64,000 nucleotides of DNA from Candidatus Omnitrophota bacterium. GTDB taxonomy: Bacteria; Omnitrophota; Gorgyraeia; Zapsychrales; Zapsychraceae. The DNA lies in assembly GCA_029261065.1 (NCBI GenBank), contig JAJDCB010000022.1, forward strand, positions 443-64,442. Direction: 5' to 3'. This document shows, one piece after another, positions 254-24,300 of the stretch. Position numbers and translations under genes: made by a program. Within the stretch, counting starts at the first letter, position 1. Each line of letters begins with the position of its first letter. The notes beneath the pieces are model-generated. The model was not told the origin of the DNA and did no database searches. It saw only the letters and a list, made by a program, of their open reading frames with translations.

Positions 254-313
254 AAGTGCTTGGTGTTATTCTACTTAAGGCCCCTTTATCAACTTAATTA
301 ATCAAATTTTGAT

Positions 314-3300
314 ATGCTTAAAAAATTAAATATTGGTTCAAAACTAGCCATCATTTTAATAGGGGTGGCGATGATACCCTTGATAGCAGTCATTAGTTAT
401 AACTTTATTGCATTCAAAAGTAAAATTCAACGTAACATGCTTAACCGCTTAAAATCCACCAACAATTCCCGTGTCGCCCATATTCAGAGTTTAATCCAAT
501 TACGACAAGAGCAGGCAAAATCTATTGCAGGTGATTTCATTTTAAAACAATTGAAAAGCGATGGGTTAAATGATCCGCAACATGTTGAAAATATTCAGAA
601 GAATATTGAATACATTTATAAAGAAATGAAGAACATTTCTACGGGGTTAGAGAGGAATAAGAGTCAACCATCTGCGATGGAGATTATTGGGGTATGGGAC
701 AGATCTGGGAAGATTATTGCCAATACAAATATAGATCTGGTAGGCAAAAAGATGCCAGAACATTATTTGAATCAGGTGCAAAAGTTAGGCGAGTATTTTG
801 GTGGATTTGAAAAGGATTCTCTTACGGGTAAGAATTTTTTAATTTTTTTACATGAAATACGTAATCATGCAACAAATGCATTCTCAGGCGCGGTCATTCT
901 AAAAGTTAAAGCAGAAATTCTTAACCAAGTTACAACAGATCGAGAAGGATTGGGGGAAACGGGGGAAACCTACATTGTCGACCGGAAGTATCGCATGGTG
1001 ACAAAATCACGATTTATAGAAAATGCCATCTTGGCACTAGAGGTGAAAACAGCAGGCACAGAAGCATGTTTTAATAACGTAAAAGCTCCTATTCATTACG
1101 CTGATTATCGTGGGGTTAGTGTGTTTGGTGCGTCAAAATATTTGCCGGATGAGGACTGGTGTTTGCTGACAGAGATTGAGGAAAAAGAGGCGTTTTCTGA
1201 AGTGGTGGATTTACGCAATCAAATGTTTCTATTTGGCTTGGCTGTGTTTTTATTTCTGATTCTTTTATCAAACAGGTTAGGGCGTTTTATAGCAAGTCCT
1301 ATACAACAATTGATGAATATAACCAAAAAGGTTGCGAAAGGTGATTTTAAAGCAAGAATAAAAGTTTCTCAAAACGATGAGTTAGGAGAGTTATCGCAAT
1401 CATTTAATGAGATGGCCCAAAAGTTGGAACAGCATACAGAAGAGTTGGAGGATATGAAATTTAGTTTAGATCAACATTCAATTGTGGGGGTTACCGATCA
1501 GACCGGTAAAATAACATATGCGAATGATAAATTTAGCGAAATATCCCAGTATTCTCAGGAAGAACTTTTAGGGCAAGATCACCGTATTTTAAATTCGGGA
1601 TATCATCCAAAAGAATTTATGAGAGATATGTGGAGAACCATTGCGCAAGGTAAGGTTTGGAAAGGAGAGGTGAAAAATAAAAAGAAAAACGGAGAATACT
1701 ATTGGGTGAATACCTCGATTATTCCTTTTTTAAATAAGCAAGGTAAACCCTATCAATATGTGGCGATACGATCAGATATTACAGATCGGAAAAATGCAGA
1801 GTTACGTTTAAAACAACAAGAGGAGACTTCCAATTTGCTTCGTCAAGTTGCAGAATTAGCTAACTCAGCAAAGGATATGCGGCAAATTTATAAAGATACG
1901 TTAAGGTATGTTTGTGAATTTATGGGTTGGCCTATAGGGCATGTTTATGTTGAAGACAATAATAGAATGATACCAGGAAAGATTTGGTTTATACCTTCGA
2001 CGCATGAATTTGATGTTTTTAAAGAAGTTACAGAAAAAACATCGTTTGAGTCAGGTATTGGTTTACCTGGTCGTGTGCTAAAGAGCAAAGAGCCGGCTTG
2101 GATCATTGATGTTCATAAAGATCCAAACTTTCCCAGAAATAAGTTAGCCAATGATTTGGGTGTAAAGGCGGCTTTTGGATTTCCCGTCAAAATAAAAGGT
2201 GATGTTAAAGCTGTTCTTGAATTTTATGCAAAAGAGCCCTTGGACCTTGATCAAGATATTTTGGATTTGATGAAGAAGGTGAGTATTCACATGGGTCTGT
2301 TTGTGGAACGAGAAGAAATAACAAATCGGTTAAAAGAAGAAGAGAGTTCTTCACGTCAATTAGCGCAGGAAGCACTAAAAGCAGCGCAAGCAAAAAGTAA
2401 TTTTTTAGCAAATATGAGTCATGAGATCCGTACGCCAATGAATGCGATTTTAGGATTCAGTGATATTTTAGGCAAAACAAAACTTGATGATCAGCAAAGA
2501 CAGTATATTGATATCGTTGAATCGAGTGGTCAATTGTTATTAGGGATCATTAATGACATTTTGGATTTTTCTAAATTAGAGGCCGGAGGGGTTACTCTTG
2601 AGAGTATTAATTTTGATTTAGAGTATTTAGTCAATGATGTTTTTAAGATGATCGGCTCAAAGCTTCGGGATAAAAAAATTGATACTTATATCGATATCGA
2701 AAATAACGTTCATCGGTTTCTTTGCGGTGATCCAACGCGTTTAAGACAAATATTGGTTAATCTTTTGGGAAATGCTATTAAGTTTACAGACCAGGGAGAT
2801 ATTGGTGTGATTGTTCGGTTAGATAAAAAGGAAAGTTTTGAGGATGAGCTGGTGATTCATTTTACGGTTAAAGATTCAGGGATAGGGATTCCAGAAGATA
2901 AAAAAGATAAAATTTTTGCAGTTTTTAGTCAGGTGGATGAAACAACGACGCGTAAATTTGGAGGGACGGGTTTAGGTTTGTCGATATGTAAATCATTATC
3001 GGAAGCTATGGGAGGCAGTATTTGGGTAGAATCCCAGGAAGGAAAGGGGAGTGAATTTCATTTTAAGATTAAACTAAAAAAAGGACAAAAGATCGAACGT
3101 GAAGGTATTAAGCCTTTGACTTTATCAGAAATGCAGGGTAAAGAAGTACTCATCGTTGATGATAACAAAAATTCTAGGGATCTTTTAAAACGATATTGCG
3201 AAGAAGTAGGGTTAAAGGTTGTTGCATCTGTTGAATCTGGTAAAAGGGCTTTAAGGCGTATTGATCAAATGATTGATGATAATAATCTAGTAGATCTTAT

Positions 3301-3943
3301 TCTTAGTGATATTATGATGCCTGAAATGGATGGGCATGGTTTGATTGCAAAGATTAGGGCAAACAAAAAGTGCAAAGACATTAAAATTATTGCCATTTCA
3401 TCTGATATTCGTTTAGGTGAGGCTCAGCATGCACAAGAAGATGGTTTTAATGGATTTTTACCTAAACCAATATCTAGAGATGCACTCTTAAAAGTTATTA
3501 CGGTCGTGCTGGGAGATAATAGAGAGCAAGGTTCCATTGTTACGCGCCATATGGCAGAAGAGCTAGCTTGTAAGGGGATAAAGGTTTTGGTTGTTGAAGA
3601 TGTTCTTCCAAATCAAGCTTTAATCAAGGCGTATTTTCAACAATTTGGTTGTGAAGGAGATTATGCGAGTAATGGTCAGGAGGCCGTTGATATGTTGCGC
3701 AGTAATATAGATCAGTATGATTTATGTCTGATGGATATGCAAATGCCTGTTATGGACGGTTTGGAGGCGACAAGAATTATTCGTAAAGAAATTTCTAAGG
3801 ACTTTCCTATCATTGCTTTGACGGCGGCAGCTTTAAAAGAAGATCAGGATCAATGTTTCAAAGCGGGTATGACAGATTACATTTCTAAACCCATACAGAC
3901 TGAAAAGTTAAAAGAAAAAATTTTAGAGTACGCCAAGGAATAA
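314..3943 (+). CDS. Hybrid sensor histidine kinase: TM-flanked periplasmic sensor, HAMP, PAS, GAF, HisKA, HATPase_c and two C-terminal receiver domains
   Basis: 1209-aa ORF. N-terminal TM helix and a second hydrophobic segment around residue 300. H-box [10 protein letters not shown]-box GGTGLGLSI. Two CheY-like blocks (LIVDDN...[10 protein letters not shown] and LVVEDV...[10 protein letters not shown]). Confidence 0.9.
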
Positions 3944-4005
3944 TTTTTGTTTGATTGTTCCTTAAGTAAAAGTTATTTATTCAAATAAAGAGGGATAAGC
4001 TTTCT

Positions 4006-4860
4006 ATGTTTACAAGGAAATGTTGTGGATGGATTATTGGTTTTTGTTTGATTGTTTTTATTACTCCTGTTGTTCAAGCGGATGAGCTTTTTGAATTAAA
4101 AGAACGACTTCGAATTATTGAAGAAGAAAAACAGGACTTGATACAAGAAATTAGGAAGCTTGAGGCTAAAGACAATGTTGAAGATGAAAAAATTCAAGAG
4201 TCTGCAGTATCAAAAGTAACGCCCCCACCAGAAGATAAACCCTACAAGACAAATGTGGCTCTTAAATTGTATTGGGATACACGTGAATATAATACATTTG
4301 AGATCGCCACAAGCTCAACAGGTTTACCCTTAGGTTTTACTTTTTGGGGCTTTACTGATTTGCATGGAAATCAAGATCAAGTGGGTGATAGTTTTGATTT
4401 TGATCGGTTTTTTATGGAGTATCGTTTGAGTCGGGCCTTTGATCCAGAGTGGGTATTAGGAATAAAAGGTTTAGGTTACCAAATGGAATACAATGATACT
4501 AACGGTTCGGGTAATCAATTAGTGCGCTTTGGTCTTACATACAAACATGGGATTCCTTCTATAATAGAAAAAGAAGGTTGGTTACAGTTAAGAGCGTTTC
4601 CTTATGAATCAGATGGTAGTGGTCAACAAATGAGTTTGATTTATTACTTTCCATTGCATGAAAGAATTTGGATTAGTGGTTTTGTAGACTTAAATCTTCG
4701 AGAAGGAGCGGATGATCGTTGGGTTATCGAGCCTCAACTTAATATTAAATTAAATGATCGGTATACATTTTTAGTTGAGTATCGATATAGCGGCTCCGAT
4801 GATGCCAGTGCAACATTGGATGGGGATGGGGTTGCTTTTGGTATGAGCATGGGTTTTTAA
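4006..4860 (+). CDS. Secreted protein with an N-terminal coiled coil and a probable outer-membrane beta-barrel
   Basis: Signal peptide and coiled-coil ELFELKERLRIIEEEKQDL. Alternating hydrophobic beta-strand pattern. The C-terminus ends in an aromatic residue (..GMSMGF), typical of outer-membrane proteins. Confidence 0.5.
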   Translation: MFTRKCCGWIIGFCLIVFITPVVQADELFELKERLRIIEEEKQDLIQEIRKLEAKDNVEDEKIQESAVSKVTPPPEDKPYKTNVALKLYWDTREYNTFEIATSSTGLPLGFTFWGFTDLHGNQDQVGDSFDFDRFFMEYRLSRAFDPEWVLGIKGLGYQMEYNDTNGSGNQLVRFGLTYKHGIPSIIEKEGWLQLRAFPYESDGSGQQMSLIYYFPLHERIWISGFVDLNLREGADDRWVIEPQLNIKLNDRYTFLVEYRYSGSDDASATLDGDGVAFGMSMGF

Positions 4861-4894
4861 AATAAATTGCTGTGTATTAAGATGGGCAGAGAGA

Positions 4895-5971
4895 ATGAGC
4901 AAAAAAATTAAAATTTTGGTAGTGGAAGATGATATTGGTGATTTCACTTTATTAAAGGGGACTCTCGATCAAGAAATTACAAATGTATTTAATCTTATAC
5001 ATGTGGATAGTTTAGAGAAGGCGTTTAAACGGTTAGATGAAGAGGATTTTGATCTTATTTTGTTGGATTTGGCGTTACCAGATAGCATGGGTTTGGATAC
5101 GGTCACAAAAATTAATGATAAACGTCCTCAAGTGCCAGTTGTCGTATTAACAGGTTTGGACGATAAAGAAGTTGGTATTGCAACCGTAAAAAAAGGAGCT
5201 CAAGATTTTTTAATTAAAGGACAGATAACGTATGACTATTTTTTTAAATCTGTTAATTATGCTCTTGAACGTGTGCGACTGGAGAATTTCAAGAACGATA
5301 TCGTTAATAATATTTCACATGAATTAAGAACCCCTCTTACTATTGTCCGAGAGAGTATAAGCCAAGTATCTGACGGCATTTTTGGGGATATCAATGAGAA
5401 ACAAGATAAATATCTAAAGATGGCTTTAACTAATATTGATCGATTAAAAAAGATTATTGATAATTTACTAGATATGTCAAAAATTGATGCAGGTAAGCTT
5501 GAGATTTTTAAAGAAAAAATAGTCGTTGCAGTATTATTTGAGGATCTTGTGGCTGATTTTTTACTTAAAGTTAAAGCAAAAGAAAATTTGAATATAAAGA
5601 ATTCAACTTTAAGCGAGAAGCTTGAAATCTTTGCTGATCGAGATAATATCATTCAAGTTTTTACAAATTTGGTTGGTAATGCTCTAAAATTTACTGATAA
5701 GGGCCTTATCGAAGTCTCAGCTACTGAAAAAGATAACTTTGTTGAATGCCGTGTTAAGGATTCGGGGATAGGAATTTCTGAAGAAGATTTACCAAGAATT
5801 TTTGGAAAATTTGATCAAATCGGAAGGCAATCTGGTCCCGGAGGTAAGGGAACGGGGTTGGGTTTGGCTATTTCAAAAAGTATCATTGAGCTGCATGGCG
5901 GTAGTATATATGCTGAAAGTGAAAAGGGAAAAGGATCGACGTTTGTTTTTACATTACCTAAAAAAGAGTAA
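4895..5971 (+). CDS. Receiver-histidine kinase fusion (REC-HisKA-HATPase_c)
   Basis: N-terminal CheY-like domain (ILVVEDD...LILLDLALPD). H-box SHELRTPLT. HATPase N/G boxes (VGNALKFT, GTGLGLAISK). Confidence 0.85.
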   Translation: MSKKIKILVVEDDIGDFTLLKGTLDQEITNVFNLIHVDSLEKAFKRLDEEDFDLILLDLALPDSMGLDTVTKINDKRPQVPVVVLTGLDDKEVGIATVKKGAQDFLIKGQITYDYFFKSVNYALERVRLENFKNDIVNNISHELRTPLTIVRESISQVSDGIFGDINEKQDKYLKMALTNIDRLKKIIDNLLDMSKIDAGKLEIFKEKIVVAVLFEDLVADFLLKVKAKENLNIKNSTLSEKLEIFADRDNIIQVFTNLVGNALKFTDKGLIEVSATEKDNFVECRVKDSGIGISEEDLPRIFGKFDQIGRQSGPGGKGTGLGLAISKSIIELHGGSIYAESEKGKGSTFVFTLPKKE

Positions 5972-6005
5972 TTTGTTTTGAAATAATATAAAGGAAAGGA
6001 GTTTT

Positions 6006-6386
6006 ATGAAAAAAATTTTAGTTGTTGATGATGAACCAGAAATTATTGAGTTAGTGGAAAGTCGATTAAGCGTAAATAATTATCAAGTTATTTCAGCTAT
6101 GGATGGGAACGAGGGGATTAAAAAAGCAGAAAAAGAATCTCCGGACTTAATCCTTATGGATGTAATGATGCCCAAGATGTCCGGAGGGGATGCTTTGAGA
6201 ATTCTTAAGGCCAATGAAAAAACGAAAGACATACCGGTTGTTTTTTTAACGGGTGTTAAAAGTAATAAAGAGCCAACGGGAGAAGAAGATAAGGGCATTA
6301 ATGTGGGTGGGCAATATTATCCAGCTGTTGGAAAGCCTTTCGAATCAGAAAAGTTGTTATTAGCCATAGAGAAAAATCTTTCCTAG
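6006..6386 (+). CDS. Single-domain response regulator (CheY-like receiver)
   Basis: 126 aa. Motifs ILVVDDEPE, LILMDVMMPKMSG and a conserved K. RBS aaaggaaaggag. Confidence 0.85.
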   Translation: MKKILVVDDEPEIIELVESRLSVNNYQVISAMDGNEGIKKAEKESPDLILMDVMMPKMSGGDALRILKANEKTKDIPVVFLTGVKSNKEPTGEEDKGINVGGQYYPAVGKPFESEKLLLAIEKNLS

Positions 6387-16694: not shown

Positions 16695-17438
16695 TTACAT
16701 TCCAGCAGGTAATTGCATAATAAGAACCCCTACCAAAGTATCTCCATCAAATACAGGAGCTCCCATGAAGCGAGCTGGATCTTCATAAGATGGTGTGTAA
16801 GGTTCCATATCCACAAAGTTTGTCATGTCTTTGTCTGAGGTGCCTTTTATAGCATCATAAACACGAGCAAAGTTTGTATCGGCATAGGGCCCATCTTTTA
16901 AACTCGTTGTAAAGTCTAGTTCTTTAAAGACACTATAAACAATATCTCCGGATTCGATATCAATAAGAAAGATATCATATAGCCCAAATTCTTCTAAATA
17001 AGCGCGGAATTTAGGGTGATATTTTTCATGAATCGTTGACCACTTTGATTTGTCACTTCCTTTATCGAGTTTGTCCTTTGACCCTAAAGGGTTTGAGTTT
17101 TCTATGATGTAATAGTATTGCATTGCAATCGTATCATCATCAAGAGAATCAAACATTTTACTTATAGGGGCTTCTTTTCCGTTATTTCTTTTTTTGTACT
17201 CAGCACCATATTGATCGGTGTAGTACGCCTTGAGTTTAGGTTTCATTTCTTCAACAGATTCAATGGCATTATCCGAACGAAAGGTCTTAAATGCTTCATT
17301 AAACTCTTTCATAGCGCTAACGACATAATCTTGTTGCGCGAAACTTTGACATTGAATTTCTTCAACACTCATGGCAAAGGCCTGCGTTGAGCAGAACATG
17401 CTCACAGCAAGTGTTAACATACAGATGATTTTTTTCAT
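16695..17438 (-). CDS. Secreted periplasmic protein, possibly a stand-alone Cache-like ligand-binding domain
   Basis: Signal peptide MKKIICMLTLAVSMFCSTQAFA. Motifs YDIFLIDIESGDIVYSV and GAPVFDGDTLVGVLIMQL resemble Cache-type sensor folds. The assignment is tentative. Confidence 0.4.
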   Translation of the reverse strand: MKKIICMLTLAVSMFCSTQAFAMSVEEIQCQSFAQQDYVVSAMKEFNEAFKTFRSDNAIESVEEMKPKLKAYYTDQYGAEYKKRNNGKEAPISKMFDSLDDDTIAMQYYYIIENSNPLGSKDKLDKGSDKSKWSTIHEKYHPKFRAYLEEFGLYDIFLIDIESGDIVYSVFKELDFTTSLKDGPYADTNFARVYDAIKGTSDKDMTNFVDMEPYTPSYEDPARFMGAPVFDGDTLVGVLIMQLPAGM

Positions 17439-17752: not shown

Positions 17753-17797
17753 TTGACAAGGCGTTATTTATATTATATATTTAACCATATGGTTAAA
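17753..17797 (+). promoter_or_regulatory. Sigma70-like promoter (TTGACA-17-TATATT) with an 18-bp perfect palindrome tTTAACCATATGGTTAAa (17780..17797) overlapping the arsR start codon
   Basis: Read directly from the sequence. The palindrome centre CATATG contains the ATG of the ArsR gene. Confidence 0.6.
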
Positions 17798-18127
17798 CAA
17801 AAAGAGCAACATATCAATGATATTTTTCATGCTTTAGCAGATCCTACGAGGCGAAAAATTCTTAAAATGCTTTCAGAGAAGGATTGCCAAGCTACGGAAT
17901 TGGCGCAGGCTTTTGAAATGTCGTTTCCTGCAGTATCTAAGCATTTAAAAGTATTAGAGAAGGCTCAGTTTATCAGAAGAAAGGTGAATGGGCGTATTCA
18001 TCGATTCTATTTTGAGGAAAAAACGATGAAAGAAGTTTATCATTGGGTGAAATTTTATGAAAAATTCTGGTTACAAAATTTGAGTAATCTGGATGATTTT
18101 CTTAATAAAAAAGGTCGTCAAGAGTAG
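17789..18127 (+). CDS. ArsR/SmtB-family metalloregulator-type transcriptional repressor
   Basis: HTH signature LADPTRRKILKML...ELAQAFEMSFPAVSKHLKVL. The ATG at 17789 is preferred over the upstream in-frame ATG at 17753. Confidence 0.8.
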   Translation: MVKQKEQHINDIFHALADPTRRKILKMLSEKDCQATELAQAFEMSFPAVSKHLKVLEKAQFIRRKVNGRIHRFYFEEKTMKEVYHWVKFYEKFWLQNLSNLDDFLNKKGRQE

Positions 18128-18188
18128 TGATTTTTGTCGAACCTCGTCATTTCTTACAGATAATGACGAAAATGCTAGGAGATAACAA

Positions 18189-18629
18189 ATGACACTACAC
18201 AATTTATCAGAAACATCACTTAAAATAGAACGAGAGTTTGCGGCAAAGAGAGAAGATGTCTTTTCGGCATGGACGGATCCGGCAAAAATGGTTCAGTGGA
18301 TGGGGCCAGGTGAGGTTAATTGTGGAGGTGTTGATATCGATTTAAAGGTGGGAGGCTGTTATAGCATTCAAATGCTGACGCCTGATAATGAAAATCCGAT
18401 TGCCGTTGGTGAATATAAAGAGATTGTTCCAAATGAAAAACTTCAATTTACATGGACCTGGAAGGGCGGCGAGATGCCAGATACCCTTGTAACGTTAACG
18501 TTTGAAGATGCCAATGGTAATACAAAGTTAACGCTTTTGCATGAAAACTTCCCAGCCAAGGAAGCTGCAGAGAAACATACACATGGGTGGAATGGGTGTC
18601 TTGATAAGTTAGGGAAATTTGTTCAATAA
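18189..18629 (+). CDS. SRPBCC/AHSA1-family (Aha1-like) protein
   Basis: About 146 aa. Conserved W...W pattern (FSAWTDPAKMVQW) typical of the AHSA1 domain, which is commonly operonic with ArsR. Confidence 0.7.
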   Translation: MTLHNLSETSLKIEREFAAKREDVFSAWTDPAKMVQWMGPGEVNCGGVDIDLKVGGCYSIQMLTPDNENPIAVGEYKEIVPNEKLQFTWTWKGGEMPDTLVTLTFEDANGNTKLTLLHENFPAKEAAEKHTHGWNGCLDKLGKFVQ

Positions 18630-18830
18630 ATAGTTAGGAGTAAAAAAATTAAACCCTGTTTTCCTTTTTAAGGAGAGCAGGGTTTTTCTTTGTGCGGAAT
18701 CTCGGCAAAACAGAGAACTATTTGAAAAATAAACGAGTACTTTTATATTTGATGATATAATTGTTTGATTATCATCCATAAACTTTACTTATAAATTCTA
18801 AGTAGTATTATTTAACGAAAGGATTTACAG

Positions 18831-19415
18831 ATGTCAGACAAAGTTAAAATTCTAGCTTTTGCTGGTAGCGCTAGGGCTCAATCGTTTAATAAAATGTTAG
18901 TTAATGTTGCTGCCAAAGGTGCCGTTGAGGCTGGGGCTGAAGTCACGGTTATTGATTTAAAAGATTATCCTATGCCGTTATTGGATCAAGATTTGGAAAC
19001 AAATGAAGGAATGCCGGAGAATGCAAAAAAAGTAAAACAGTTAATGATTGAACATGATGGTTTTTTAATCGCCTGCCCGGAATATAACAGTTCCATCACA
19101 CCTCTTTTAAAAAATACAATTGATTGGGCTTCAAGGCCAACAGAAAAAGATGAGCCCATGTTAAAAGCCTACACAGGTAAGATAACAGCCATTATGAGTG
19201 CATCTCCAGGAGGGCTTGGAGGATTACGTGGCCTTGTTCATGTTAGATCAATTTTTGAAAATATTAATGTTATAGTTTTGCCTAATCAGCGTGCTATTGG
19301 AAGTGCATATAACGCATTTGATGATCAAGGGAATCTAAAAGATGAAAAGCAAAACAATGCCGTGAAGGCCTTGGGTGGGGAGCTGGCCAACTTTATTAAA
19401 AAGATTAAAGGGTAG
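18831..19415 (+). CDS. NAD(P)H-dependent FMN reductase (flavodoxin-like fold)
   Basis: KILAFAGSARAQSFN... flavodoxin-like motif of the FMN_red family. Confidence 0.75.
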   Translation: MSDKVKILAFAGSARAQSFNKMLVNVAAKGAVEAGAEVTVIDLKDYPMPLLDQDLETNEGMPENAKKVKQLMIEHDGFLIACPEYNSSITPLLKNTIDWASRPTEKDEPMLKAYTGKITAIMSASPGGLGGLRGLVHVRSIFENINVIVLPNQRAIGSAYNAFDDQGNLKDEKQNNAVKALGGELANFIKKIKG

Positions 19416-19422
19416 ATGAGAT

Positions 19423-19977
19423 ATGAAACTTATTGGTTCTACGACATCTCCTTATGTTCGACGCATCAGACTTCAGTTGAAGGATCAAGATCATGAGTTT
19501 AGGTGTGTTAATATTTTTACAAAAGAAGGTCAAATGGAGGTGGCTCAATATACGACTACGGGGCGCATTCCTCTTTTGGTTGATGATAATAAGGTGATAT
19601 GGGATTCATTTTTGATTGCACAGTATTTAGCGCCTAAGCCACTTGCCTTAGATCTTCAAAAGGATTTGGTTCTTATCAATGAAATGACTGATGCTGGTGT
19701 GCAGTTGTTTCAGTTGAGAAAGTTTGAAATTGACGTTGAAGATAAGGGGCTTTTTTCCAAAAATAATTTAAGACGCATAAAAAATATCCTTAGCTATTTT
19801 GAAGCTAAAAAATTAGTAGAGTGGAATATCCTTACTCAATGGCTTTATTGCACGCTAGATTGGTTTGATTTCCGTAATGTTTTTAAATGGCGTGATGATC
19901 ATCCGCGACTTGTGAGTTTTTATAATACATATTGTGAGCATATCAAAATTAAAGAAACGGAACCACGGCAAAATTAG
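19423..19977 (+). CDS. Glutathione S-transferase-like protein
   Basis: N-terminal thioredoxin-like GST fold (LIGSTTSPYVRRIRLQL...IPLLVDDNKVIWDSFLIAQYL). Confidence 0.6.
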   Translation: MKLIGSTTSPYVRRIRLQLKDQDHEFRCVNIFTKEGQMEVAQYTTTGRIPLLVDDNKVIWDSFLIAQYLAPKPLALDLQKDLVLINEMTDAGVQLFQLRKFEIDVEDKGLFSKNNLRRIKNILSYFEAKKLVEWNILTQWLYCTLDWFDFRNVFKWRDDHPRLVSFYNTYCEHIKIKETEPRQN

Positions 19978-20003
19978 AAATTAACTTTAAAAAGAAGGTG
20001 ATT

Positions 20004-21248
20004 ATGTCAAAAATTTTGGATCAGGATATATTAAAGAAAAAAAGATTCGTTAATATTTTTCACAATCCGATTACAGCTTGGATCATATTGGGAACTTCCT
20101 TGGGGTTAACATTTTTCGCCTATAGAATATCAAGCGACTTTGTCCATAAACGTGCGGAGGATAGATTTATTTTTAGACTGCACGAAATTAAGCAAGCCAT
20201 TAAAGATAGATTGGATGTTTATGAACAAGTTCTTTGGAGTGGTGTTGGCTTAATGTATGCTTCTGAAAATTTGAAAAGAGAAGGATTTAGTAAGTTTGTT
20301 GAAGCTTTAAATATTCAGAGGCATTGGCCTGGCATACAAGGTGTGGGTTTTAGTGTTTTTTTAAAACCCGAGGAGAAACAAGCTCATATTGATGCGATTC
20401 GTGCTCAAGGATTTCCAAATTTTCAGATTAAGCCTGAGGGTGAGCGAGAGATGTATTCCTCAATTGTTTATTTGGAACCCTTTGATTGGCGCAATAAACG
20501 AGCTTTTGGCTATGACATGTGGTCAAATGATATGCGTCAAGAAGCAATGAAGCGTGCACGTGATGAAGCGGTTGCAGCGACATCAGGTATTATCACACTG
20601 GTGCAGGAGACGAACGATGATGTGCAAAAAGGTTTTTTAACTTATGTTCCAGTATATAAGAGTAAGAGCATTCCAAGAACGCTCGAAGAGCGGAGAAACC
20701 AATTTCTCGGCTGGGTTTATGCTCCTTATCGGACGGGTAATTTAATGAAAGGTATTCTGGGAGCGGAGGATCCCAATATTGAATTTGAAATCTTTGATGG
20801 GGAGAACATGAATCAAGAGTCGCTTCTTTTTGATAGCAATGATGAATTGCATATATCTTTATCGAATGATAAGCCAGATTTCGAAAAAGTTATTAAAGTT
20901 GTTAATCAAGGGCGAACATGGACGTTATATTTTAGTACTCCTTATAATTATTTAAGTAACAGTGAAAAAAATCAACCTCGTTTTGTGGCGATCGCGGGAC
21001 TTATAGTAGATGTTCTTCTTTTTTACGTTATTTATTCGTTATATTTTATCAATCGACGAGCAGAGGCAATGGCCCGTGAATTAACAAAAGATGCTAAAGA
21101 GGATAAAGAAAGTTTAATGCAGGCTCTTAAGGAAGCTGAAGGTAAGGCCGATGAGCTTAAGAAAACAAATGAAGTTATGGTTAATCGTGAAGCTAAGATG
21201 GTCGAGCTAAAAAAAGAAATTATTGAGCTTAAAAAAAGAGTAAAGTAA
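20004..21248 (+). CDS. CHASE-domain membrane protein with no output domain (TM - CHASE - TM - cytoplasmic coiled coil)
   Basis: Periplasmic region carries the CHASE signature (W..RAFGYDMWS...AMKRARDEAVAATSGIITLVQE). The 70-aa C-terminal tail is charged coiled coil only. A GTG at 19998 is an alternative start. Confidence 0.7.
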   Translation: MSKILDQDILKKKRFVNIFHNPITAWIILGTSLGLTFFAYRISSDFVHKRAEDRFIFRLHEIKQAIKDRLDVYEQVLWSGVGLMYASENLKREGFSKFVEALNIQRHWPGIQGVGFSVFLKPEEKQAHIDAIRAQGFPNFQIKPEGEREMYSSIVYLEPFDWRNKRAFGYDMWSNDMRQEAMKRARDEAVAATSGIITLVQETNDDVQKGFLTYVPVYKSKSIPRTLEERRNQFLGWVYAPYRTGNLMKGILGAEDPNIEFEIFDGENMNQESLLFDSNDELHISLSNDKPDFEKVIKVVNQGRTWTLYFSTPYNYLSNSEKNQPRFVAIAGLIVDVLLFYVIYSLYFINRRAEAMARELTKDAKEDKESLMQALKEAEGKADELKKTNEVMVNREAKMVELKKEIIELKKRVK

Positions 21249-21251
21249 ATT

Positions 21252-23522
21252 ATGAAAGTAAGACAACAATGTGTGATCGCTTTAATTTTTGTAATGGGCG
21301 TTGGTTTTTCTTTATTCGGGTATCGAATGGCTCTTCAATGGGAAAATAGTCGTAGAGAATTATTTTTTGAGAGCGCTGCCAAGGAGGAAATTAAAGCATT
21401 ACAAGAAGCTATTAAGGATGATTTGGATTATTTAGATTCCATAAAGGGTTTTTACAATGCTTCTACTTTTGTTGATCGGCATGAGTTTCAAATTTTCACA
21501 CAAGATATACTTGCACGGAATCGAACCATTCAGGCTTTAGAATGGATTCCTCGTGTGAGGTTAGAAGAAGTGCCTAAATATGTGAATTTAGCAAAAGCCG
21601 ATGGGTATAATAACTTTCAAATTTTAGAAAAAGATAAAGTTGGGAAAATGAAAGCAGTAGGTGTCAGGAAAGAATACTTTCCTGTTTATTATGTGGAACC
21701 AATGTTGGGCAATGAGAACGCTTTTGGATTTGATTTGGCCAGTAATAAAGCTCGTAAAGATAGTTTGACGATGGCACGCGATACAGGCGAAATGAAAGCA
21801 ACCGCGAGTATAACCTTAGTGCAGGAGGAAAAAAATCAAAAAGGTTTTTTGGTTTTTAATCCGATATATAAGGACAATTCTTGGAATACTACGGTAGAAG
21901 ACCGTCGGGAAATGTTAGTAGGTTTTGTGCTAGGTGTTTATAGCGTTAAAGATCTTGTAGATGGGAGTCTCATCAGGCTTAAAACGACGGATCTAAAATT
22001 TTTTGTATATGAATTGTTTGAGAATAATGAAAAAAATCTTTTATATATTCACGGAGAAAAAAATGAAGGACATTTAAAAGATGAAATAAATGAACGTAAG
22101 GTAGAAGACTCAAGATATTTGAAATACGGTCAAATTATTGATGTTGCCGGAAAAAAATGGGAAGTTGTAGCGCAACCGTTGAATAATACTTTTGGGAAAA
22201 AAACGAGCCAACCTATTCTTGTACTAGTAATTTGTCTTATGATTACTATATTTTTAGTTGGTTTTACATTTTCTAATATGAGAAAAACAGCTGATATTGA
22301 GAAATTGGTCAAGTTGCGAACGCGAGAGTTGATGGAGGCTAAGCAGAGTTTAGAAAAAAATAAAGTTAAGATTGAATCGGCCCTTACTTATGCTGAGAAA
22401 ACTAAGCTTGCATTACAAAATGTTATGGAAGACTTAGAAGCGGAACGTGTAAAATTAGCGTCGAGTGAAGAGAGATTTGCAATAGCCAATTTTTCAGCAA
22501 AAGTTGGTATTTGGGATTGGGATGTTGTTAATAATCATATCATTTGGGATAAGGCTATGTATGGACTTTATGGAATCAAGGAGGGAGATTTTGGAGGCGC
22601 TATTGAAGCTTGGGAAGCTGGTCTTCATCCTGAAGATGCCAAAAGGTGTCAAGTTGAAATTCAAGCAGCACTAAAGGGGGAGAAGAATTTTGATACTGAC
22701 TTTCGAATTGTTTGGCCTGAAGATAAATCCATTCATCACATTCGGGCGCATGCAACAGTTCAGAGAGATGAGAAAGGTGAGGCTATTCGGATGCTTGGGA
22801 CAAACTGGGATATTACTGAGCTTAAGAGTTTGGCACAACGTTTAGCTTCTTCTAATCAAGAGCTTGAACAATTTGCTTATGTGGCATCGCATGATTTGCA
22901 AGAGCCGATACGTAAGATCGTTGGATTTACACAATTGTTTTCAAATTTGTTTGAAGGAGAGATGGATGGGAAGAAAAAAGAATATATGCATTATATTGTA
23001 GATGGTGCGAAACGAATGCAGTTGTTGATTCAAGATTTGTTGCAATACTCAAGAGTTGGAAGCACGCAATTGGATTTTGAGGAATTTGATTTTACCTCGA
23101 TTGTTGAAGAAGCTAAAGCCAATCTTGAATTAATTATTGATGAAACGGATACTAAAATTACGTATAAGCAACTACCAAGTTTAAAAGTTCATAGAGGTTT
23201 TATGGTCAGATTAATTCAAAATTTGATTAACAATTCAATAAAATATAGAAGTGAGGCTCCTCCTGAGATTAATATATTAGCTGAGTTAAAAAATCGTCGC
23301 TGGGAATTTACGATTTCTGATAATGGCATTGGTATTGCTGAAGAATTTTTTGAGCAGGTCTTTGTCGTATTTAAACGGTTACATGGAAAGGGCGAATATT
23401 CAGGTACGGGTATTGGACTGGCTATTTGCAGACGCATTGTTGAAAGGCATGGGGGAAGGATTTGGATTAAAAAATCGATGTCTAGCAAAGGGACAACTTT
23501 TAAATTTTATCTTCCCGAATAG
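21252..23522 (+). CDS. CHASE-domain sensor histidine kinase (TM-CHASE-TM-PAS-HisKA-HATPase_c)
   Basis: CHASE signature (ALEWIPRV...AFGFDLASN...ARDTGEMKATASITLVQE). PAS (VGIWDWDVVNNHIIWD). H-box ASHDLQEPIRKI. G-boxes GTGIGLAICRRIV. The gap to the upstream CHASE gene is only 3 nt. Confidence 0.85.
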   Translation: MKVRQQCVIALIFVMGVGFSLFGYRMALQWENSRRELFFESAAKEEIKALQEAIKDDLDYLDSIKGFYNASTFVDRHEFQIFTQDILARNRTIQALEWIPRVRLEEVPKYVNLAKADGYNNFQILEKDKVGKMKAVGVRKEYFPVYYVEPMLGNENAFGFDLASNKARKDSLTMARDTGEMKATASITLVQEEKNQKGFLVFNPIYKDNSWNTTVEDRREMLVGFVLGVYSVKDLVDGSLIRLKTTDLKFFVYELFENNEKNLLYIHGEKNEGHLKDEINERKVEDSRYLKYGQIIDVAGKKWEVVAQPLNNTFGKKTSQPILVLVICLMITIFLVGFTFSNMRKTADIEKLVKLRTRELMEAKQSLEKNKVKIESALTYAEKTKLALQNVMEDLEAERVKLASSEERFAIANFSAKVGIWDWDVVNNHIIWDKAMYGLYGIKEGDFGGAIEAWEAGLHPEDAKRCQVEIQAALKGEKNFDTDFRIVWPEDKSIHHIRAHATVQRDEKGEAIRMLGTNWDITELKSLAQRLASSNQELEQFAYVASHDLQEPIRKIVGFTQLFSNLFEGEMDGKKKEYMHYIVDGAKRMQLLIQDLLQYSRVGSTQLDFEEFDFTSIVEEAKANLELIIDETDTKITYKQLPSLKVHRGFMVRLIQNLINNSIKYRSEAPPEINILAELKNRRWEFTISDNGIGIAEEFFEQVFVVFKRLHGKGEYSGTGIGLAICRRIVERHGGRIWIKKSMSSKGTTFKFYLPE

Positions 23523-23634: not shown

Positions 23635-24300
23635 ATGCGAAAGATTTTGCTGATGGTTTTTGTTGGATTGTTTTTGGCTTTTTCGAGTAATGCCATAGCG
23701 AGTGAGGTTTGTGATGGTATGAAAGATCGTGCTGTTCGTGGTGTGACTAATTTGGTTACAGGTATCGTTGAATGGCCTTTTCAAATAAAGAAAGGTTATA
23801 CCAATGGGGTAAGTTTTATCGAAAATGAAGCGGGTTCCAAAACGGTTGGAACAATTCTTGGGTTTTTTAGAGGAATTGGTCATGCCGGTGGCCGTATGAG
23901 TTCTGGAGCAGTAGAACTTTTTGGATTTTGGGCGGTTAGTCCTGATGATAATGATGGTGTTGGCGTTCCTCTTGATGCAGAATATGCTTGGGAAGAAGGC
24001 GAACAATACAGCATTTTTAAACCAAATCTTACTGAAGGTGTCAAACCATGGTTCCGTAAGTTAGGACGCGGTTTGGGTAATGGTTTTCTTGGTATTTTAG
24101 AAGTTCCAGGCCAAATTAAAAAAGGCGCTGATGATGGTAATGTTGCCAAAGGTGTTGGCAAGGGTGTCTGGTATTGGTTTTCGCGAGAAGTTTATGGAAT
24201 GGGAGATATCATGTCATCCTTTGTTCCCAATCCAGAAGATAATATGGGAGCCGTTCATTTTGAAGAAGAGTGGCCATGGGAGGCTTTAACAGCAGAATAA
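23635..24300 (+). CDS. Secreted protein with an internal two-fold repeat, function unknown
   Basis: Signal peptide. Repeat units RGVTNLVTGIVEWPFQIKKGYTNG and RGLGNGFLGILEVPGQIKKGADDG. Gly/Trp-rich. Confidence 0.45.
   Translation: MRKILLMVFVGLFLAFSSNAIASEVCDGMKDRAVRGVTNLVTGIVEWPFQIKKGYTNGVSFIENEAGSKTVGTILGFFRGIGHAGGRMSSGAVELFGFWAVSPDDNDGVGVPLDAEYAWEEGEQYSIFKPNLTEGVKPWFRKLGRGLGNGFLGILEVPGQIKKGADDGNVAKGVGKGVWYWFSREVYGMGDIMSSFVPNPEDNMGAVHFEEEWPWEALTAE

What the first reader, a model, noticed from the sequence alone, without database searches (positions are those of the whole stretch)
19998..23522. CHASE-only membrane protein encoded 3 nt upstream of a CHASE-PAS histidine kinase
Both ORFs have TM-CHASE-TM topology with clearly homologous periplasmic domains. 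The first ends in only a 70-residue charged coiled coil (no kinase, cyclase or MCP module). The second carries PAS-HisKA-HATPase. A sensor-domain paralog lacking output, and operonic with the kinase, suggests a co-receptor or decoy that modulates signalling.
Basis: partly seen in the sequence, partly recalled or inferred. Interest (0 to 1): 0.6.

Follow-up and report, generated by a model that had tools for sequence, protein, structure and literature searches.

The report
Kinase-less CHASE co-sensor with docking tail
A membrane sensor that has no enzyme of its own sits directly in front of a sensor kinase, and it ends in a short conserved helix found on thousands of other output-less bacterial sensors, which probably lets it plug into a matching helix on the neighbouring kinase.

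Summary
ORF1 (20004-21248, 414 aa) is TM-CHASE-TM plus a 65-residue helix. ORF2 (21252-23522, 756 aa) is TM-CHASE-TM-PAS-HisKA-HATPase. ORF1 is not a truncation or frameshift artefact. Of its 120 closest homologs, 46 are 412-503 aa proteins ending in the same conserved tail (K..ELE..N....GRE.R.IELK.E.N.L, often ...LG..PPY), 66 are fused kinases, and none has both.

The tail is an undescribed C-terminal module. It hits 18,430 protein clusters at E<=1e-3. In all 148 representatives examined it ends within 25 residues of the C-terminus. It is found only on input, receiver and linker domains (PAS, PocR, GAF, REC, CHASE, Cache, HAMP, ETR1_N) and never with a kinase or cyclase. No Pfam or NCBIfam model matches it.

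In 8 of 8 distinct operons the CHASE-tail gene abuts a kinase. Only those kinases carry a juxtamembrane 'LxLMED' helix (ORF2: ALQNVMEDL). It is absent from 88 other kinases in the loci examined and from 119 ORF2 homologs. Natural fusions place this helix downstream of an internal tail (16 of 30, against 0 of 113 single-tail proteins).

Best reading: ORF1 is a second ligand sensor that controls ORF2 through a cytoplasmic tail-to-helix contact. The contact itself is inferred, not shown.

The parts
20004..21248 (+). ORF1: kinase-less CHASE sensor (414 aa; an alternative GTG start lies at 19998). Layout: TM1 (about residues 21-43), CHASE, TM2 (328-346), then one continuous cytoplasmic helix to the C-terminus.
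   Evidence: AlphaFold2 model with pLDDT 86.7 and a single helix over residues 319-413. CHASE fold match to PcrK and AHK4.
20268..20837 (+). CHASE domain of ORF1 (Pfam residues 91-278 in the 416-aa numbering from the GTG start).
   Evidence: PF03924, 218.6 bits, E=8.2e-65.
21126..21245 (+). C-terminal tail module of ORF1: ...EGKADELKKTNEVMVNREAKMVELKKEIIELKKRVK. This is the short subtype without the PxY ending.
   Evidence: Tail HMM 42.6 bits, E=3e-12 among the ORFs of the loci held; it is the only tail in the 64 kb window. Family alignment. 18,430 clusters hit at E<=1e-3.
21252..23522 (+). ORF2: sensor histidine kinase (756 aa). Layout: TM1 (6-24), CHASE (74-265), TM2 (322-340), S-helix-like LRTRELMEAK, MED helix, PAS_3 (430-518), HisKA (538-603), HATPase_c (651-755).
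22410..22451 (+). Juxtamembrane 'MED helix' of ORF2 (ALQNVMEDLEAERV, starting near residue 387), the proposed acceptor for the ORF1 tail.
   Evidence: The pattern is present in 12 of 13 kinases next to tail genes and in 0 of 88 other kinases. Its background is 9 chance hits in 814,383 residues. It is absent at this position from 119 ORF2 homologs.
21246..21254 (+). Gene junction TAA-ATT-ATG. The 3-nt spacer and shared frame are typical of translational coupling.
   Evidence: Other operons have a 3-nt gap or a 17-30 nt overlap.

Best explanation
ORF1 is a dedicated accessory sensor for the kinase ORF2. It binds its own periplasmic ligand through a CHASE domain. The resulting conformational change travels down the continuous TM2-to-tail helix. 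The conserved C-terminal tail docks on the juxtamembrane 'LxLMED' helix that ORF2 carries between TM2 and its PAS domain. In this way ORF1 sets ORF2's kinase/phosphatase balance, and ORF2 integrates two periplasmic inputs (its own CHASE and ORF1's) plus a PAS input. Shown here: the domain content of both proteins, the conservation and strictly C-terminal position of the tail, its restriction to output-less sensor proteins, the conserved adjacency to kinases, the exclusive co-occurrence of tail genes with MED-helix kinases, and the tail-then-MED order in natural fusions. Inferred: the physical tail-MED contact, the direction and sign of regulation, and the ligands.
For: (1) Of the 120 closest ORF1 homologs, 46 carry the tail (412-503 aa), 66 carry a kinase core and none carries both. 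The tail therefore replaces the transmitter. (2) The tail profile finds 18,430 clusters at E<=1e-3 and 3,319 at E<=1e-10. In all 148 representatives examined the last copy ends within 25 residues of the C-terminus, median 8. (3) Pfam scans of 109 tail proteins list only input, receiver or linker domains among the 25 most frequent of 37 matched families. Motif scans find an H-box, GGDEF motif or G2 box in 0 of 148. (4) In 8 of 8 distinct operons the CHASE-tail gene abuts a kinase on the same strand. (5) The MED helix occurs in 12 of 13 kinases next to tail genes. That includes four loci (three distinct) found after the pattern was defined. It occurs in 0 of 88 other kinases in the same loci. 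The one apparent miss, L017, has two MED motifs in the ORF just upstream of its kinase. The helix is also absent from 119 ORF2 homologs and from all 120 ORF1 homologs. (6) Two MED-less ORF2 relatives have no tail-bearing neighbour. (7) Rosetta stone: a MED helix lies between the two tails in 16 of 30 proteins with well-separated copies, and in 0 of 113 single-tail proteins. About 0.6 chance matches are expected in the whole set. (8) Tail subtype and MED subtype co-vary in 8 of 8 pairs. (9) The partner kinases have unrelated sensor domains and two different H-box types, so shared kinase ancestry does not explain the MED helix.
Against: No physical interaction was tested, and a heteromer could not be modelled with these tools. 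The MED pattern was partly derived from five of the partner kinases; only L025, L026, L028, L060 and L017 are independent of it. The co-variation sample is small and the lineages are related. Tail proteins outside the CHASE family are not always next to a kinase (L015, L016), so the tail may have other or more general partners. No response-regulator gene lies next to the window's pair, so the output of ORF2 is unknown. The nearest receiver genes are about 14 kb upstream.
Confidence: 0.55

Rival explanations
1. ORF1 modulates ORF2 through a periplasmic or membrane CHASE-CHASE heterodimer. In this reading the tail is only a homodimerising coiled-coil cap.
For: Both proteins have TM-CHASE-TM topology. 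In 6 of 9 contexts the partner kinase also has a CHASE domain, and those CHASE domains form a distinct clade co-inherited with the tail gene. From general knowledge, the solved CHASE domains are dimers.
Against: CHASE-tail proteins also pair with kinases that have no CHASE domain (L009, L012, L013). An ETR1_N-tail protein, made only of the membrane-embedded ETR1_N domain and the tail, flanks the same kinase as a CHASE-tail protein. The same tail ends cytoplasmic PAS, GAF and REC proteins. Its invariant polar residues (R, E, K, N, G, Y) go beyond what a plain dimerisation coil needs.
Confidence: 0.15
2. The tail is an output module for a different, unlinked effector such as a shared hub protein or a small-molecule ligand. 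Its co-occurrence with MED-helix kinases would then reflect a common third partner or a shared lineage-specific linker style.
For: Some tail proteins have no adjacent kinase (L015, L016). The module is very abundant (18,430 clusters), which would suit a hub. Short-LOV proteins, the nearest loosely similar case, act on a transcription factor encoded next door (PMC9758184).
Against: The tail-to-MED association is very tight both in operons and in fusions. No other conserved neighbour gene was seen across the operons.
Confidence: 0.2
3. ORF1 is a ligand decoy or sink, or a decaying remnant of a duplicated kinase, with no signalling output.
For: It has no enzymatic domain.
Against: 46 homologs at 45-67% identity keep the full length and the tail. 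48 columns are invariant across the 41-member family alignment. Synteny with kinases is conserved. A decoy would not need a conserved cytoplasmic tail.
Confidence: 0.05
4. ORF1 and ORF2 are made as one polypeptide by read-through of the single TAA that separates them in frame.
For: The two ORFs share a frame and are separated only by TAA-ATT. L009 and the ETR1_N gene of L013 also have in-frame 3-nt gaps.
Against: In L011, L012, L025, L026 and L028 the genes overlap in different frames. Stop-plus-3-nt-plus-ATG is an ordinary coupling junction. No read-through signal was found, and Rfam finds nothing in the window.
Confidence: 0.03

Closest known systems
CHASE-domain sensor kinases (Arabidopsis AHK4/CRE1; Xanthomonas campestris PcrK)
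   Same: Same periplasmic fold and TM-CHASE-TM topology. The ORF1 model matches 6K62 and 3T4K, and Pfam CHASE scores far above the cutoff in both ORFs. ORF2 is an ordinary member of this kind.
   Different: ORF1 has no transmitter at all. CHASE was defined as a domain linked to cyclases and histidine kinases, and no CHASE-only signalling protein turned up in the literature searches.
Accessory membrane proteins and kinase-like proteins that regulate a histidine kinase by direct contact (UhpC-UhpB, DctA-DcuS, RetS-GacS, SafA-PhoQ, MzrA-EnvZ; all cited from general knowledge)
   Same: A separate membrane protein, encoded with or near the kinase, feeds a signal into the kinase by protein-protein contact rather than by phosphotransfer.
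   Different: Those partners are transporters, small peptides or full kinase-like proteins, each specific to one system. Here a bona fide ligand-binding sensor domain carries a portable 40-residue tail that recurs on many unrelated sensor domains, and the kinase carries a matching conserved helix.
Effector-less 'short LOV' proteins of Pseudomonas (PpSB1-LOV, PmSB-LOV)
   Same: A sensor core of PAS type followed only by a C-terminal helix, with no fused effector. PmSB-LOV acts on a regulator encoded next to it (PMC9758184). These gave the only PDB hits of the tail profile (2YON E=0.022; 7A6P E=0.5). Identifying those two entries as short LOV proteins rests on my memory.
   Different: The similarity covers only the generic heptad half of the profile and lacks the invariant Arg, Lys and Asn. 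The known partner is a LitR-type transcription factor and not a kinase. Homology is not established.
Signaling helix (S-helix; Anantharaman, Balaji and Aravind 2006, PMC1592074)
   Same: A helical segment of about 40 residues with heptad periodicity that follows sensor domains. CHASE-tail proteins also carry S-helix-like ERTxEL repeats upstream of the tail.
   Different: [quoted passage not shown] The tail is terminal in 148 of 148 representatives and has a different signature (N....GRE.R..ELK.E.N.L instead of ERT).

Membership tests
CHASE domain proteins (PF03924) | Profile match above Pfam's gathering score | tested here: met
   ORF1 218.6 bits and ORF2 164.9 bits, against a cutoff of 25.
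CHASE domain proteins (PF03924) | Extracytoplasmic location between two TM helices, with a long stalk helix and two PAS-like lobes | tested here: met
   Hydropathy gives TM2 at 328-346 in ORF1, and TM1 at 6-24 and TM2 at 322-340 in ORF2. ORF1's TM1 is weaker, with a Kyte-Doolittle mean of about 1.25 by hand calculation. The AlphaFold2 model matches PcrK with TM 0.86 and AHK4 with TM 0.74-0.76.
CHASE domain proteins (PF03924) | Linked in the same polypeptide to a cyclase, kinase or other transmitter (the origin of the name) | tested here: not met
   ORF1 has no transmitter, as is true of 46 of its 120 closest homologs. ORF2 meets this feature.
Classical sensor histidine kinase (ORF2) | HisKA with the phospho-acceptor His, plus the HATPase_c catalytic domain | tested here: met
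   HisKA 40.7 bits, HATPase_c 86.6 bits, H-box YVASHDLQEPIRK.
Classical sensor histidine kinase (ORF2) | A cognate response regulator encoded alongside | tested here: not met
   No receiver gene is adjacent. The nearest are at 4847-6383, about 14 kb upstream. In L025, L026, L028, L060 and L011 the orthologous kinase is followed by a REC gene.
Tail-terminated output-less sensors (proposed here; no database entry) | Match to the tail profile (K..ELE..N....GRE.R.IELK.E.N.L) ending at the C-terminus | tested here: met
   ORF1 scores 42.6 bits over residues 398-430 of the 431-residue stop-to-stop ORF. It belongs to the subtype without the LG..PPY ending.
Tail-terminated output-less sensors (proposed here; no database entry) | No transmitter or output domain in the same polypeptide | tested here: met
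   for ORF1; for the family.
Tail-terminated output-less sensors (proposed here; no database entry) | Physical binding of the tail to the MED helix of the partner kinase | not testable with these tools
   Only genomic association is available. Heteromer modelling and experiments were not possible.
S-helix (signaling helix) | Lies between an N-terminal sensor and a C-terminal effector domain, with an ERT signature | tested here: not met
   The tail is terminal in 148 of 148 representatives and its core is GRE rather than ERT (definition in PMC1592074).
HisKA/DHp remnant (tail as a degenerate H-box helix) | Profile-profile similarity between the tail and the linker-plus-DHp region of fused CHASE kinases | tested here: not met
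   hhalign of A3 against A4 gives probability 0.7% with one aligned column.

The most novel reading that the evidence does not exclude
The tail and the MED helix form a general, portable donor-acceptor docking pair. It would let bacteria build sensor kinases from separately encoded parts. Any sensor module (CHASE, ETR1_N, PAS, PocR, GAF, Cache, REC) that ends in the tail could plug into any kinase or PAS module that begins with a MED helix, either in trans from adjacent genes or in cis in fusions, possibly in daisy chains. That would be a previously unrecognised, very widespread layer of combinatorial wiring in two-component signalling. It would also give a function to thousands of 'PAS-only' and 'sensor-only' proteins.
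Probability: 0.35. Interest if true: 0.85.

Novelty: new variant of a known kind. Interest (0 to 1): 0.7.

Why it matters
Large numbers of bacterial proteins consist only of sensor domains (PAS, GAF, CHASE and others) with no recognisable output, and how they signal is a long-standing gap. The tail found here marks at least 18,430 such protein clusters. It comes with a specific, testable candidate acceptor on neighbouring kinases. If the tail-MED contact is real, three things follow. It explains how output-less sensors transmit. It predicts partner kinases from sequence alone. It also offers a compact, natural plug-and-socket pair for rewiring sensor kinases in synthetic biology. For this locus, it means ORF2 is a multi-input kinase whose activity cannot be understood without ORF1. 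The L013 operon places an ethylene-receptor-type sensor and a cytokinin-receptor-type sensor, both with tails, on either side of one kinase, which makes it an attractive test case.

Tried and rejected
(1) Tail as a degenerate HisKA H-box or DHp helix 1 ('ELExFNxxMVGRELR' against 'ELExFxYxxSHDLxEPLR'). Rejected: hhalign gives probability 0.7%, and the apparent register is off by one residue.

(2) Tail as a known domain. Pfam at E<=10 gives only coiled-coil noise, and NCBIfam gives nothing. The PDB profile search gives only weak hits to short-LOV C-terminal helices and to designed coiled coils.

(3) Stand-alone 55-80 aa 'mini-proteins' carrying the motif. These are the 3' pieces of sensor genes split by frameshifts or stops (HAMP, CHASE4, DUF4118-PAS). 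They are not a separate class.

(4) The alignment-based word-index search returned only short proteins, so it could not show architectures. The exhaustive profile search was needed.

(5) The genome-contig scan returned only fused CHASE kinases (L002-L008), with no tail loci.

(6) The reverse test, whether MED-bearing ORF2 orthologs also have tail partners, could not be run. No ORF2 homolog among the best 120 has the helix, so the last two look-ups served as negative controls.

(7) Organism identity. No names are attached to the exact proteins, and there are no rRNA or other Rfam hits in the window. It remains an unidentified bacterium of about 36% G+C, with ORF1 relatives in SAR324, 'Deltaproteobacteria' and Gammaproteobacteria MAGs.

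(8) The Logan contig L001 is 100% identical over 9,529 bp. It may derive from the same reads, so it is not counted as independent confirmation.

(9) The promoter and terminator scans are at background level. The only usable hint is a terminator-like hairpin at 18651-18685, which would allow co-transcription of 18831-23522.

(10) Literature searches for CHASE-only proteins, output-less sensors and split sensor/kinase pairs found no prior description.
Full report
OBSERVATION

The window holds two adjacent + strand ORFs. ORF1 runs from 19998 (GTG) or, more likely, 20004 (ATG, 414 aa) to 21248. The ATG is preceded by AAGAAGGTG, and the 414-aa form is the one called in a public assembly. ORF2 runs from 21252 to 23522 (756 aa).

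Pfam places CHASE (PF03924) in both, at 218.6 and 164.9 bits against a cutoff of 25. It adds PAS_3, HisKA and HATPase_c in ORF2 only. ORF1 has no other Pfam or NCBIfam domain. The two proteins align across TM1-CHASE-TM2 at 27% identity, E=3e-31.

An AlphaFold2 model of ORF1, built on a 41-sequence family alignment, has mean pLDDT 86.7. Its periplasmic part best matches the crystal structures of the CHASE domains of Xanthomonas PcrK (6K62, TM 0.86) and Arabidopsis AHK4 (3T4K). TM2 and everything after it form one uninterrupted helix, residues 319-413.

The genes are separated by TAA-ATT-ATG and share a reading frame.

ORF1 IS COMPLETE

This does not apply. ORF2 starts immediately with its own TM1. 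Among the 120 closest homologs of ORF1, drawn from many unrelated assemblies, 46 are proteins of 412-503 aa that stop at the same place. Another 66 are fused CHASE kinases, 8 are truncated or unclear, and none combines the two endings. A 100% identical 9.5 kb contig exists in a Logan assembly, but it may come from the same reads, so I do not count it as independent.

THE C-TERMINUS IS A CONSERVED MODULE

The short homologs share a C-terminal signature: K..ELE..N..(M/T).GRE.R(I/M/V).ELK.E(V/I)N.L...LG..PPY. Arg-Glu is invariant, and Leu-Lys and a further Leu are nearly so. There are two flavours, one ending in LG..PPY and a shorter one (MV.RE.(R/K)M.ELKK.(I/N)..LK) without it. ORF1 has the shorter kind: KADELKKTNEVMVNREAKMVELKKEIIELKKRVK.

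The same tail ends a 183-aa protein in locus L013 that is otherwise just an ethylene-receptor-type ETR1_N membrane domain (Pfam 105 bits).

A profile of 52 tails, searched exhaustively against 1.84 billion cluster representatives, found 18,430 proteins at E<=1e-3 and 3,319 at E<=1e-10. In all 148 new representatives among the 150 best hits listed, the last tail copy ends within 25 residues of the C-terminus (median 8), and 35 carry a second, internal copy.

Pfam scans of 109 of them matched 37 families. The 25 most frequent are all input, receiver or linker domains: PAS variants (up to 89 proteins), PocR 14, GAF 11, REC 10, CHASE 5, HAMP 5, dCache 4, SBP_bac_3 3, DUF4118 3, and also sCache, MASE3, ETR1_N, CHASE3 and Tll0287. 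Motif scans find no H-box, GGDEF or G2 box in any of the 148.

No Pfam or NCBIfam model recognises the tail. A profile search of PDB sequences gives only weak hits (E=0.02 and 0.5) to two 'sensory box protein' chains, plus designed coiled coils. From memory, those two chains are effector-less short LOV proteins of Pseudomonas.

The 55-80 aa 'mini-proteins' found are the 3' pieces of frameshifted sensor genes (HAMP, CHASE4, DUF4118-PAS).

The tail is therefore a widespread, apparently undescribed module that terminates sensor proteins lacking any known output.

GENOMIC CONTEXT

I examined every CHASE-tail locus I could obtain: the window, four loci through exact-protein look-ups, and four more among 80 metagenomic loci retrieved with the family alignment. 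In all 8 distinct operons the CHASE-tail gene abuts or overlaps a histidine kinase gene on the same strand, or is one gene away from it.
- Window: CHASE-tail | CHASE-PAS-kinase.
- L025, L026, L028, L060: CHASE-tail | CHASE-kinase | REC.
- L011: CHASE-tail | Peripla_BP_6 | CHASE-kinase | REC | REC-PAS-kinase.
- L009: CHASE-tail | ABC_sub_bind membrane protein | 4HB-HAMP-kinase | REC | REC-kinase | REC.
- L012: CHASE-tail | MASE3-PAS-kinase.
- L013: ETR1_N-tail | PAS-kinase | CHASE-tail | REC | REC-GGDEF-EAL.

A neighbour-joining tree of CHASE domains puts the partner kinases' CHASE domains (ORF2, L011, L025, L026, L028) in a separate deep clade. The CHASE-tail proteins sit among ordinary fused CHASE kinases. 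The pair is therefore an old, co-inherited two-gene module and not a recent local duplication.

A MATCHING HELIX ON THE KINASE

Every partner kinase carries a short helix of the type (A/L)L.(N/S)LMED...R, located between its membrane or HAMP region and its PAS or DHp domain. In ORF2 this is ALQNVMEDLEAER, starting near residue 387.

A pattern written from the first five partners matches 12 of 13 kinases next to tail genes. That includes four loci (three distinct) found afterwards. It matches 0 of 88 other kinases in the same loci, and 0 of 55 non-partner CHASE kinases.

The single miss is L017. There the ORF directly upstream of a sensor-less 326-aa kinase has two such motifs, so that kinase gene is probably frameshift-split.

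Background over all 5,801 ORFs held (814,383 residues) is 9 chance matches outside tail-linked loci, none in a kinase. The one other hit in the window is a porin.

None of 119 ORF2 homologs has the helix at the juxtamembrane position, and none of the 120 ORF1 homologs has it anywhere. Two MED-less relatives of ORF2 have no tail gene nearby.

The partner kinases have unrelated sensor domains and two different H-box types, so common kinase ancestry does not explain the helix.

Tail subtype tracks helix subtype in 8 of 8 pairs. Tails without PxY go with .N.M(E/D)D helices, and PxY tails go with .S(L/I)(M/F).D helices. This is suggestive only, because the sample is small and the lineages are related.

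ROSETTA-STONE FUSIONS

Thirty representatives carry two well-separated tails. In 16 of them a MED helix lies between the tails. The typical order is sensor-HAMP, tail, linker, PocR-like domain, AALSLAEDA helix, PAS, tail. None of 113 single-tail proteins has the helix. It precedes the first tail only once. About 0.6 chance matches are expected in the whole set. So the order tail then MED helix holds both between adjacent genes and within fused polypeptides.

MECHANISM

The most economical reading is that ORF1 is a second ligand sensor for ORF2. Ligand binding in ORF1's CHASE domain is transmitted along the continuous TM2-tail helix. From general knowledge of CHASE receptors, this is presumably a parallel dimeric coil. 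The tail then docks onto ORF2's MED helix, which sits where ORF2's own transmembrane signal enters the PAS-DHp relay, and biases kinase output.

Shown here: the domain content, the conservation and position of the tail, its restriction to output-less sensors, the synteny, the exclusive tail/MED co-occurrence, and the fusion order. Inferred: the physical contact, the sign of regulation and the ligands.

I put 0.55 on this specific mechanism, and about 0.8 on the looser statement that ORF1 is an accessory sensor of the adjacent kinase by some route.

RIVALS
It cannot be the general coupling, because CHASE-tail proteins also pair with CHASE-less kinases, an ETR1_N-tail protein (only the membrane-embedded ETR1_N domain plus the tail) pairs with the same kinase as a CHASE-tail protein, and the tail also ends cytoplasmic proteins.
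- The tail may address a third, unlinked partner. Some non-CHASE tail proteins have no adjacent kinase.
- A decoy or a decaying remnant is contradicted by the conservation of the family and its tail.
- Read-through fusion is contradicted by out-of-frame overlaps in other operons.
- My own idea that the tail is a degenerate H-box helix failed a profile-profile test.

COMPARISON WITH WHAT IS KNOWN

ORF2 is an ordinary CHASE-PAS histidine kinase apart from its MED helix and the lack of an adjacent response regulator. ORF1 has the CHASE fold but fails the feature that gave the domain its name, which is linkage to a cyclase or kinase.

Functionally it resembles accessory proteins that regulate kinases by contact, such as UhpC-UhpB, DctA-DcuS and RetS-GacS (general knowledge). 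It also resembles effector-less short LOV proteins, one of which acts on an adjacently encoded regulator (PMC9758184).

It differs from all of these in using a portable, widely shared terminal module together with a matching acceptor helix. It also departs from the S-helix, which is described as almost always lying between two signalling domains (PMC1592074).

Seven literature searches found no description of CHASE-only signalling proteins, of this tail or of the MED helix. The library is incomplete, so absence is not proof.

VERDICT

The finding is real. The arrangement is conserved. Interest 0.7.

Noticed in passing
L013 3588-9678 (ENA ERZ23498929 scaffold_49); the same arrangement occurs in L014: One operon encodes an ETR1_N (ethylene-receptor-type) membrane domain with a tail, a PAS histidine kinase with a MED helix, a CHASE (cytokinin-receptor-type) sensor with a tail, a REC protein and a REC-GGDEF-EAL protein. 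Two plant-hormone-type sensor domains, both without outputs, flank one kinase.
   Followed up: partly
Proteins P0149-P0186, e.g. P0153 residues 549-1013: Thirty-five of the top tail-bearing representatives carry two tails. The typical order is sensor-HAMP, tail, low-complexity linker, PocR-like Cys-rich domain, 'AALSLAEDA' helix, PAS, tail. This suggests that tail and MED modules can be chained.
   Followed up: partly
window 17753-19977: Upstream of the pair, on the same strand, lie an ArsR-type HTH gene (17753-18127), an AHSA1/SRPBCC gene (18189-18629), a terminator-like hairpin (18651-18685), an FMN-reductase/flavodoxin-like gene (18831-19415) and a GST-N-like gene (19423-19977, ending 26 nt before ORF1). 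The last two may be co-transcribed with ORF1 and ORF2. An AHSA1 gene also lies just upstream of the CHASE-tail gene in L011, and an ArsR-type gene lies upstream in L012.
   Followed up: no
window 302-6383: A separate phosphorelay cluster about 14 kb upstream: a 1213-aa dCache-HAMP-PAS-GAF-HisKA-HATPase-REC-REC hybrid kinase, a REC-HisKA-HATPase protein and a single-domain REC. These are the only receiver domains in the window, and they could in principle receive phosphate from the orphan kinase ORF2.
   Followed up: no
window 1-64000: GC skew is positive in every 2 kb bin (+0.08 to +0.34) at about 36% G+C, and most of the ORFs listed between 15 and 29 kb are on the + strand. This is consistent with a long leading-strand stretch. 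There are no Rfam matches at gathering thresholds anywhere in the window.
   Followed up: no
window 23635-24300 and 16695-17438 (- strand): Two proteins without any Pfam match flank the region. One is 221 aa and lies 112 nt downstream of ORF2. The other is 247 aa on the opposite strand. Both have N-terminal signal-peptide-like sequences.
   Followed up: no
L017 1085-8255 (ENA ERZ25039554 contig_114040): This contig carries two tail proteins in tandem (PAS-tail and DUF4118-PAS-tail). They are followed by an ORF with two MED motifs and then a bare HisKA-HATPase gene. Several of the genes look split by frameshifts, so this may be an error-prone assembly.
   Followed up: partly
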